Positions 3-491 of a DNA stretch of 64,000 bases are shown one piece after another. Source of the DNA: Eledone cirrhosa (taxonomy: Eukaryota); NCBI GenBank assembly GCA_964016885.1, contig OZ024752.1, forward strand, positions 9,362,001 to 9,426,000. The letters are read 5' to 3'. The translations under genes were made by a program, and so were the position numbers. The notes beneath the pieces were generated by a model. That model did not search any database, had not been told where the DNA came from, and worked only from the letters and a program-made list of their open reading frames with translations. Every line of letters starts with the position of its first letter. Within the stretch, counting starts at the first letter, position 1.

Positions 3-452
3 TATACTACGAGCTGTCTCACCTATGTACACTATATTCTTATCTCTACATTGTTTTTCAGTACATCTTATGCTATATACTACATTTCTAGTTTTACAGT
101 TAATATGGGCGCTTAGTTTACAGATTATACATTTCTTATCTATAGGGGTTGTATTGATGAACATTACACTCTGGTATTTATTGCTATCATACCATGAGTT
201 TATTCTATTAACCTTATTTCTAGTTCTTTCTATTCTATTCCAAAATTTGCTCCTATACAAGGGGCAGGTCCCATTTGTATCATTATTTACCATTTTATCC
301 CATTTTGATCTGGCTCCTCTATATACTCTGATTTTATCTCTCTGATTGTATACAGAGAACTGCATACGGTGGATGAAGTGTTGTATGTGTCTCTCTAGTT
401 CTTTGGGGTTGCACATGCGGGACACGTTGGCAACATAACCCTCCCAAAGCAT
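3..452 (-). pseudogene. Penelope-like retroelement ORF fragment: RT thumb/linker plus start of GIY-YIG endonuclease (Nematis/Neptune-like), running off the left edge
   Basis: Hand translation gives a stop-free minus frame: ...NVSRMCNPKELERHIQHFIHRMQFSVY...GTCPLYRSKFWNRIER...SWYDSNKYQSVMFINTTP IDKKCIICKLSAHINCKTRNVVYSIRCTEKQCRDKNIVYIGETARSI. The CxxC...C linker and VVY...C...C...YIGET motifs match PLE GIY-YIG domains. The linker after TTP looks internally deleted. Confidence 0.85.

Positions 453-491
<39 letters not shown>

What the first reader, a model, noticed from the sequence alone, without database searches (positions are those of the whole stretch)
3..459. Unlisted Penelope-like RT/GIY-YIG ORF fused to an inverted family G end
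Seen: an open minus-strand frame with PLE thumb and VVY...YIGET motifs. At its 5' truncation point (428-459) sits the terminal piece of family G in the opposite orientation, running into (TA)n. Established: PLE insertions often carry an inverted pLTR fragment at the 5' truncation. Inference: family G is this element's pLTR, which links the hammerhead families to a mobilising enzyme.
Basis: partly seen in the sequence, partly recalled or inferred. Interest (0 to 1): 0.7.

Follow-up and report, generated by a model that had tools for sequence, protein, structure and literature searches.

The report
Dead Penelope-like retrotransposon with inverted end
This is a broken copy of a Penelope-like jumping gene capped by a flipped piece of what is very probably its own ribozyme-bearing end, a known insertion pattern, though its protein lineage has an unusually long, telomerase-like insertion that may not have been described.

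Summary
3-428 (-) is a Penelope-like element (PLE) fragment covering RT thumb, linker and the first half of a C-terminal GIY-YIG domain. It has no RT catalytic motifs, is 5'-truncated at 428 and has lost about 44 codons in frame at 143/144, so it is a dead copy. 427-460 (+) matches hammerhead family G (32/34) in inverted orientation with 2-nt microhomology. G is a pLTR plus ORF start of this PLE lineage. Its 3' end is an ATG-led frame, and an HMM of six homolog N-termini ranks G and G-like copies top six of 2087 segments. Related metagenome loci show the same order: stop, UTR (hammerhead core intact in some), ATG, then 7 or 24 codons, then ATATAT or (TA)n. The 34-nt piece is thus the tail-less pLTR end; complete G copies run 57 nt further. 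That G belongs to this exact family is likely but unshown, since no contig joins the ORF 3' end to G. The other hammerhead families are not linked. The insertion pattern is known PLE biology. Side result: 84 of 85 homologs have a telomerase-length insertion between RT motifs A and B'.

The parts
3..428 (-). 5'-truncated PLE ORF fragment (142 codons): RT thumb/C-terminal extension, shortened linker, first half of GIY-YIG endonuclease; runs off the left edge of the window
143..144 (-). Junction of an in-frame internal deletion (about 44 codons by comparison with P0001, 2-nt microhomology) that removes most of the RT-EN linker including the first Cys of the CX4CxxC knuckle
   Evidence: 44-residue gap; loose ends at 143 and 144 in all four runs encode the missing linker ends; alignment
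15..131 (-). Remaining CxxC (120-131), Cys (96-98), VVY (75-83), two Cys of the CCHH motif (63-65, 48-50), YIGET (15-29)
   Evidence: translation, alignment with 16 homologs, compared by eye with Craig 2021 Fig. S2
427..460 (+). Inverted, 5'-truncated family G piece: 8 nt of leader, decayed start codon (ATA at 435-437) and 8 codons, ending in ATAT that merges with the microsatellite; 2-nt microhomology (427-428) with the ORF end
   Evidence: next native letter differs in the loose ends at 428
457..488 (.). (TA)16 microsatellite, the presumed insertion target
8891..9215 (-). Family G copy: pLTR 3' part with hammerhead (core mutated U4 to C), ATG at 8972 and 27 open codons to the (TA)n boundary (tailed end)
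19961..20285 (-). Family G copy (duplicate of 8891-9215 within an about 11-kb duplicated block); intact minimal type I hammerhead at 20176-20220; ATG at 20042
39294..39542 (+). Diverged family G copy with the hammerhead core deleted and two stops in the N-terminal frame; same tailed end
50236..50305 (+). G-like ORF-start fragment (sister subfamily)
53929..53982 (+). G-like ORF-start fragment
54716..54782 (+). G-like ORF-start fragment (sister subfamily)

Best explanation
This is one dead-on-arrival insertion of a C-terminal-endonuclease PLE into a (TA)n microsatellite, and family G is that element's pLTR plus ORF start. Shown: the ORF fragment, its truncation and deletion, the inverted G piece, and G's anatomy of hammerhead, 144 nt, ATG, 27 codons. 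Also shown: relatives of this lineage end the same way. Inferred from PAc biochemistry (PMC11167929): the element's GIY-YIG domain nicked both strands of an AT-rich target, and the RT primed from both 3' ends at internal start sites just inside the ORF start of the tandem RNA. One cDNA (priming site left of the window) copied back through the pLTR into the ORF as far as 428. The other primed at the upstream, tail-less site (codon 9, ATAT pairing with the target) and stopped after 34 nt. The two were joined head to head through 2 nt of microhomology. The 143/144 deletion and point changes happened during or after insertion. G's two ends (codon 9 and codon 27-28) are the two RT start sites, and the 57 nt between them are the PLE 'tail'. 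Stand-alone G copies are short 5'-truncated insertions made by intact members elsewhere in the genome.
For: Junction and orientation. An HMM of six homolog N-termini, built without G, ranks G and G-like copies top 6 of 2087 six-frame segments (top four E 0.015-0.036), with profile position 1 on G's Met. G or G-like copies keep the top four places in all six leave-one-out profiles, and 0 of 2000 shuffles reach the real score (16.8 against a maximum of 10.4; 1939 sequences reported). Differences between G and two G-like subfamilies over 19 codons fall 6 of 9 and 6 of 8 at third positions. Of 13 related metagenome loci, 10 include the ORF end. L005 runs stop, mutated hammerhead core, ATG, 24 codons, ATATAT. 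L003 and L008 run stop, ATG, 7 codons, (TA)n (hammerhead core found in L008, not in L003). L001 runs stop, intact hammerhead, ATG, next ORF. L003, L008 and G share TGCGTGT upstream of the ATG (seen by eye). Arkhipova 2013 (PMC3846280, passages) describes a pLTR holding the first 12 aa, 22 with the tail, and a tail on only one of the inverted pLTRs. Other fold-back insertions in the window also have a one-sided extension (9422-9760 extended to 9838; 11954-12086 to 12142; 60640-60761).
Against: No record joins the ORF's 3' end to G: none among the 15 of 72 joints and 23 of 494 loose ends shown, and the window ends before the stop. At least three G-like subfamilies exist in the window, so sister families are present. 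The N-terminal match is weak for any single sequence: blastp of the G peptide against the stored proteins gave a best E of 0.39, and a pairwise comparison with the L001 start found no alignment. I noticed the resemblance by eye before building the HMM, and the six top copies are not independent (two are one duplicated block). A C-terminal profile finds no ORF end at G's 5' side (E about 6). Rfam does not recognise G's hammerhead. The ATG in L003 and L008 is assigned by position and likeness only, because those contigs lack their own 5' ends. Three of the 10 loci with an ORF end (L004, L006, L010) are uninformative.
Confidence: 0.68

Rival explanations
1. G is the pLTR and ORF start of a sister family of the same PLE lineage. 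The 34-nt piece was added by a template switch or by trans-priming on the sister RNA during insertion.
For: Several G-like subfamilies occur in the window. The ORF family has variant subfamilies (loose ends at 57-62, 101, 385), and a relative only 60% identical exists in octopus. Trans action of PLE enzymes is reported (PMC3846280). A G tail of about 31 nt also caps an unrelated sequence at 10771-10801.
Against: Cis origin is the simpler reading of a direct 2-nt microhomology junction between two pieces of the same lineage, and inverted self-pLTR ends are the described norm (PMC8557442).
Confidence: 0.2
2. The junction is secondary. A longer insertion, or two neighbouring independent insertions in the same (TA)n tract, was shortened later by a microhomology-mediated deletion that brought the ORF next to the end of an inverted G copy.
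For: The same copy has another deletion with 2-nt microhomology at 143/144. PLE-type pieces cluster in the TA tracts of this window.
Against: The piece ends at the tail-less site expected for the inverted arm of a single insertion. There is no TA spacer between ORF and piece.
Confidence: 0.09
3. G is an unrelated hammerhead retroposon (retrozyme- or SINE-like), and its adjacency and peptide likeness are chance.
For: Per-sequence E-values of the N-terminal match are only 0.015-0.04, and pairwise tests are negative.
Against: Rank 1-6 of 2087, leave-one-out and shuffle controls, third-position bias, and matching end anatomy in L003, L005 and L008.
Confidence: 0.03

Closest known systems
Canonical EN+ PLE insertion unit with inverted 5'-truncated pLTR and optional tail (Arkhipova et al. 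2013, PMC3846280; Craig et al. 2021, PMC8557442)
   Same: Inverted truncated pLTR at the 5' truncation, microhomology junction, pLTR overlapping the first codons of the ORF, tail on one end only, AT-rich target, hammerhead in the pLTR.
   Different: The tail here is 57 nt, against 30-40 nt described. The inverted arm is only 34 nt and does not reach the hammerhead. The direct 3' pLTR and any target-site duplication lie outside the window and were not seen.
Nematis clade (C-terminal EN, short CX2-5CxxC linker), as shown in Craig 2021 Figs S1, S2, S7
   Same: EN after RT; short knuckle-to-GIY spacing; a similar linker stretch (IKVVEKPG in P0001 against VRIVEKPG in Nematis_Pp), all compared by eye.
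   Different: Homologs have 125-139 aa between RT motifs A and B' (84 of 85) against about 63 in Nematis_Cr (hand count). They also have GGAIG instead of GxAMG, LRKDHK, DKSG, a longer thumb and ORFs of about 1050 aa.
PAc (Poseidon_Ac) of Anolis carolinensis (Frangieh et al. 2024, PMC11167929)
   Same: Hammerhead near the ORF start, RT initiation inside the first codons at two sites that bound the tail, AT-rich target; this is the mechanistic model used here.
   Different: PAc is in the Penelope/Poseidon clade (no linker knuckle). Its ORF starts within the hammerhead, whereas G's ATG is 144 nt after the core.
Naiad/Chlamys (Craig 2021), including octopus Naiad_Obim and Naiad_Ovul
   Same: (TA)n preference, CX2-5CxxC knuckle, an insertion between RT motifs A and B'.
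   Different: Naiads have an N-terminal EN and lack canonical hammerheads. Here EN follows RT in 101 of 101 proteins bearing both motifs, and the insertion is about 70 aa against about 20 aa.
Non-LTR retrozymes (Li, Clavereau, Pollet, bioRxiv 10.64898/2026.07.22.740005)
   Same: Short type I hammerhead repeats derived from PLE pLTRs.
   Different: G copies here are monomers ending in ORF-start codons, not tandem arrays, so they look like truncated PLE ends rather than retrozymes.

Membership tests
Penelope-like elements (EN+) | Telomerase-related RT | tested here: met
   Tested on homolog P0153, not the window fragment, which lacks the palm: AF2 pLDDT 93.5; Foldseek ranks 1-4 are TERTs; VIA rows 1-17 are all telomerase, best Z 11.0, rmsd 4.9, 321 aligned.
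Penelope-like elements (EN+) | GIY-YIG endonuclease in the same ORF | tested here: met
   VVY...YIGETAR in the window frame aligns with homolog EN. Pfam GIY-YIG hits 4 of 18 homologs at E 0.0006-0.003, all below the curated cut-off; none on the fragment.
Penelope-like elements (EN+) | CCHH motif in EN | tested here: inconclusive
   Both Cys are present in the window; the His residues would lie left of base 1. They are present in homologs (H803, H813 nearly invariant).
Penelope-like elements (EN+) | pLTR with hammerhead after the ORF stop | tested here: inconclusive
   Met in relatives L001 and L008, mutated core in L005, not found in L003. G has the hammerhead. The 3' end of the window copy is outside the window.
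Penelope-like elements (EN+) | Inverted 5'-truncated pLTR and one-sided tail | tested here: met
   427-460 is inverted and ends at codon 9; full G ends at codon 27-28.
Penelope-like elements (EN+) | Target-site duplication or empty site | not testable with these tools
   The left end is outside the window; the genome is not held; the target is a microsatellite.
Naiad/Chlamys | N-terminal EN | tested here: not met
   EN is downstream of RT in 101 of 101 proteins with both motifs; in the window the thumb precedes the EN.
Penelope/Poseidon | No CX2-5CxxC linker knuckle | tested here: not met
   The knuckle is present in homologs; CxxC remains in the window, with the first Cys deleted.
Hydra | CCHH absent; linker CxCX5C | tested here: not met
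   Homologs have CX4CxxC and CCHH.
Neptune | CX2-5CxxC followed by a long (about 25-30 aa) spacer before the GIY motif | tested here: not met
   The spacer is about 7 aa here against the long spacer of the Neptune rows in Craig Fig. S2; by eye.
Nematis | Short CX2-5CxxC linker with C-terminal EN | tested here: met
   By eye against Craig Figs S2 and S7.
Nematis | No insertion in fingers (canonical C-terminal EN+ PLEs) | tested here: not met
   A-to-B' spacing 125-139 aa in 84 of 85 homologs against 60-63 by hand count for Penelope, Neptune and Nematis rows. Inferred for the window family, whose palm is not in the window.
Nematis | Groups with Nematis in an RT phylogeny | not testable with these tools
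   No named reference PLE sequences were available as tool sequences; Repbase and Dfam are not searchable here.
Minimal type I hammerhead of metazoan PLEs (Cervera and De la Pena 2014) | CUGAnGA/GAAA core, 4-5 bp helix I, long helix II, minimal helix III, NUH site | tested here: met
   20176-20220 (-): 5-bp and 6-bp stems (fold z only -1.1 to -1.6). My descriptor found 2 hits in the window against a mean of 0.1 in 30 block shuffles. There is no Rfam match.
Minimal type I hammerhead of metazoan PLEs (Cervera and De la Pena 2014) | Self-cleavage | not testable with these tools
   Needs an in vitro assay.

The most novel reading that the evidence does not exclude
The fragment and G belong to a widespread, not yet named PLE clade: C-terminal GIY-YIG, Nematis-like knuckle, hammerhead pLTR, (TA)n targeting, and a roughly 70-residue insertion in the RT fingers. 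That spacing is longer than human TERT's (132 against about 118 aa between motifs A and B'), although canonical C-terminal-EN PLEs are said to have no such insertion. The family is highly amplified in octopus-like genomes. Its two fixed priming sites (codon 7-9 and codon 24-28, both at AT-rich ends) would make it a direct test of two-ended internal priming and of what a telomerase-like IFD does outside telomerase.
Probability: 0.3. Interest if true: 0.58.

Novelty: new member of a known kind. Interest (0 to 1): 0.32.

Why it matters
The locus itself is an ordinary dead PLE insertion. Its use is in annotation: it ties one abundant hammerhead repeat of an octopus-like genome to a PLE lineage, and it shows that short hammerhead repeats can be assigned to their master lineage by translating the few codons at their 3' ends. 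It also shows both PLE priming ends at one family. If the lineage with the long fingers insertion is indeed unnamed, it revises the statement that C-terminal-endonuclease PLEs lack an IFD and bears on PLE-telomerase evolution.

Tried and rejected
Retrieving DNA left of the window: no genome is held, and the read-laying tool printed no loose end at base 1. No RNA holder was listed, which says nothing about expression. Runs X6 and X7 cover the ORF (19 and 5 contigs laid) but not 433-460, while X1 and X4 cover both; a 34-nt piece is easily missed, so I draw nothing from this. Pfam on the fragment gave only Mrr_cat at E 0.046, below cut-off; a second scan of 12 proteins gave one RVT_1 hit at E 0.024 and otherwise unrelated weak hits. 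Rfam at gathering level found only a weak tRNA. The E-value scan was swamped by TA-repeat miRNA models (150 of 706 rows shown), and G alone gave no hammerhead family. No other PLE ORF remnant was found in the window (0 of 151 tblastn hits outside 1-640; profile search). A search for more N-terminal homologs returned only the query (1 of 1005 candidates). The possible ORF C-terminus at G's 5' side was rejected (E about 6). The Naiad assignment I first considered was rejected on domain order. A PDB sequence search found only two bacterial defence RTs; no PLE structure appeared. ESM Atlas: the nearest clusters are unnamed RT-like proteins of 730-1085 aa, some with HTH_animal, RVT_1 or GIY-YIG; the A-B' region gave unnamed clusters. 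Scans of prokaryote genomes and viral contigs found no relative. A strict linker regex matched only 29 of 97 proteins with YxGETxR, so the knuckle claim rests on the alignments. Whether the insertion folds like TERT's IFD was not tested. Earlier scan notes by place and by sequence were empty. Literature searches and motif searches in the Craig supplement (0 hits for RMQFSGY, QFSGY, GGAIG, GGPIG, GGSIG; long cells are cut and alignment gaps may hide motifs) found no description of this lineage. Subscription papers, Repbase, Dfam and bioRxiv supplements were not visible.

Full report
The window is AT-rich animal DNA full of (TA)n arrays and short repeats. The best named protein hits are Octopus vulgaris predictions, so I call the genome octopus-like; this is an inference. 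No genome is held for it.

The ORF. A minus-strand frame is open from 632 to the left edge; its part above 428 is G piece and microsatellite. Residues from 428 to 3 match P0001 at E 1.8e-46 (3 hits of 15 candidates), with 85 identities over 142 aligned residues and a 44-residue gap. A library-wide phmmer search gave 303 relatives at E up to 0.001, 150 listed. On a 969-position profile of 109 homologs the fragment covers positions 695-790 and 836-877 only: thumb, linker ends and the GIY...YIG half of the endonuclease, with no RT catalytic motif. Pfam does not recognise the fragment. It recognises 4 of 18 homologs as GIY-YIG and 3 of 18 as RVT_1, all under the cut-offs. A full-length homolog, P0153, folds confidently (pLDDT 93.5), and its nearest solved structures are telomerase RTs. 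EN follows RT in 101 of 101 stored proteins bearing both motifs. The PLE call is therefore secure.

The copy is dead. I laid contigs of 4 of the 24 listed runs on 1-460; 2643, 2522, 19 and 5 records were laid. Other copies continue past 428 with letters that translate in frame to the helix seen in homologs (26, 54 and 1 contigs), so 428 is a truncation point and what follows is foreign. Loose ends at 143 and 144 in all four runs carry the two ends of the missing linker, so the gap is a deletion with 2-nt microhomology. Among the 40 of 144 difference rows shown, nine positions differ from nearly all X1 contigs, five at first or second codon positions. One gives Val where all 16 aligned homologs have the Gly of SGY. 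Depth is not a copy number, but thousands of contigs in X1 and X4 point to a much-repeated family.

The inverted piece. 427-460 (+) matches G at 32/34 and a diverged G copy at 30/34, with 4 pattern matches against 0 in 100 shuffles. It overlaps the ORF end by TT and merges by ATAT into (TA)16. G (8891-9215, duplicated at 19961-20285; a third copy at 39294-39542) carries a minimal type I hammerhead on the strand that reads the same as the piece, so the piece is inverted relative to the ORF. Rfam does not score this hammerhead, and its fold z-score is modest. The assignment rests on the core and stems, on my descriptor (2 hits against 0.1 in shuffles) and on the description in PMC4209133 (part 1 of 4 and passages). 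Complete G copies run 57 nt past the end of the piece.

G encodes the lineage's N-terminus. 144 nt after the hammerhead core G has an ATG and 27 open codons up to its end. I noticed by eye that this peptide resembles the start of homolog P0040, then tested it. Six homologs retain a true N-terminus. An HMM of their first 45 columns, without G, ranks six G or G-like copies first among 2087 six-frame segments, the top four at E 0.015-0.036, starting on G's Met. The top four places hold in all six leave-one-out profiles, including the one without P0040 (E 0.07-0.27), and 0 of 2000 shuffles reach the score. G differs from two G-like subfamilies mostly at third positions (6 of 9 and 6 of 8), while the decayed copy at 39453 does not (3 of 7, two stops). 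Against this, single-sequence tests are weak or negative, and the six copies are not independent.

Relatives show the same ends. L001 reads stop, intact hammerhead, ATG, next ORF; L002, L007 and L009 also run on into a next unit. L005 reads stop, hammerhead with a mutated core, ATG, 24 codons of the N-terminus, then ATATAT and flank. L003 and L008 read stop, short UTR (core in L008, none found in L003), TGCGTGT, ATG, 7 codons, (TA)n. G has TGCGTGT 16 nt before its ATG. L004, L006 and L010 are uninformative.

Mechanism. PMC3846280 (passages) describes pLTRs that include the first 12 residues of the ORF, 22 with the tail, with the tail on one inverted pLTR only, and microhomology 5' junctions. 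PMC11167929 (parts 1-2 of 4) shows that PAc nicks and extends both strands of AT-rich DNA and starts reverse transcription at two sites inside the ORF start that bound the tail. PMC8557442 (passages and supplement parts 54, 55, 57, 58) describes adjacent inverted 5'-truncated copies and (TA)n bias. I infer two-ended priming with head-to-head joining for this locus; none of those steps was shown here. Fold-back insertions of other families in the window have one-sided extensions in three cases noted (9422-9838, 11954-12142, 60640-60761 with its left extension) and one more at 36870-37249, while 35296-35766 and 32222-32556 are symmetrical.

What remains open. No record joins this ORF's stop to G; one search showed 15 of 72 joints and 23 of 494 loose ends, none of them ORF-to-G. 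Sister subfamilies of both G and the ORF exist. I put 'G is a pLTR of this lineage' at about 0.95 and 'of this very family, in one insertion' at about 0.68. The other hammerhead-core repeats of the window do not score on the N-terminal profile and are not linked to this enzyme.

Clade. The linker is Nematis-like by eye. Naiad, Penelope/Poseidon, Hydra and Neptune each fail a defining feature. But 84 of 85 homologs with motifs A, B' and C have 125-139 residues between A and B' (median 132; one outlier at 542). My hand counts on Craig Fig. S1 give 60-63 for Penelope, Neptune and Nematis, about 84 for a Naiad and about 118 for human TERT, and that paper says canonical C-terminal-EN PLEs have no IFD. 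Five literature searches found no account of such a lineage. Repbase, Dfam, Arkhipova 2006 (not seen) and subscription papers could well hold it under a generic Penelope name. The palm is not in the window, so the feature is inferred for this family from its relatives.

Interest 0.32. The novel reading, an unnamed PLE clade with a telomerase-length fingers insertion, has probability 0.3 and interest 0.58.

Noticed in passing
window 494-12142 and 12343-23288, with 200 N at 12143-12342: An about 11-kb near-identical tandem duplication around an assembly gap (98-100% in unique parts); it may be an assembly artefact, and it makes pairs of repeat copies non-independent.
   Followed up: partly
window 10178-10801 (duplicate 21288-21911): About 600 nt of unrelated sequence between (TA)n tracts that ends in the last ~31 nt of the G tail and contains a hairpin resembling a decayed hammerhead near 10467-10506; possible trans-mobilised or chimeric insertion.
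   Followed up: partly
window 9422-9838, 11954-12142, 32222-32556, 35296-35766, 36870-37249, 59493-59766, 60561-60761: Fold-back insertions, most with hammerhead-core words and most next to (TA)n, several with a one-sided tail; probably pLTR stumps of other PLE families whose ORFs are not in the window.
   Followed up: partly
window 54214-54238 (+): Second hit of my strict hammerhead descriptor, not part of family G.
   Followed up: no
window 1317-1509 and copies at 13150, 39652, 50323, 52984, 60974, 61783 and others: An abundant ~190-nt dispersed repeat family, SINE-like by appearance.
   Followed up: no
window 36474-36541 (+): Weak Rfam tRNA match (33.3 bits), possibly a SINE head.
   Followed up: no
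L001, L007, L009 (terminal direct repeats of 123, 99, 118 nt) and L002 (936 nt): Unit-length contigs of about 3.3-3.5 kb (5.1 kb for L002) that close on themselves or run into a next unit: tandem or circular PLE units of this lineage. L002 carries a long repetitive in-frame insert, recalling the N-rich inserts of rotifer Penelopes.
   Followed up: partly
P0232: An Octopus vulgaris protein annotated as dynein regulatory complex subunit 6-like contains a stretch 98% identical to part of P0001 (21% of the query): a PLE piece in a gene model, either exonised or mis-annotated.
   Followed up: no
L003 2562-2568, L008 1740-1746, window 8989-8995 (-): Shared TGCGTGT 5-16 nt upstream of the presumed start codon in distant members; a candidate promoter or RT-binding motif.
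   Followed up: partly
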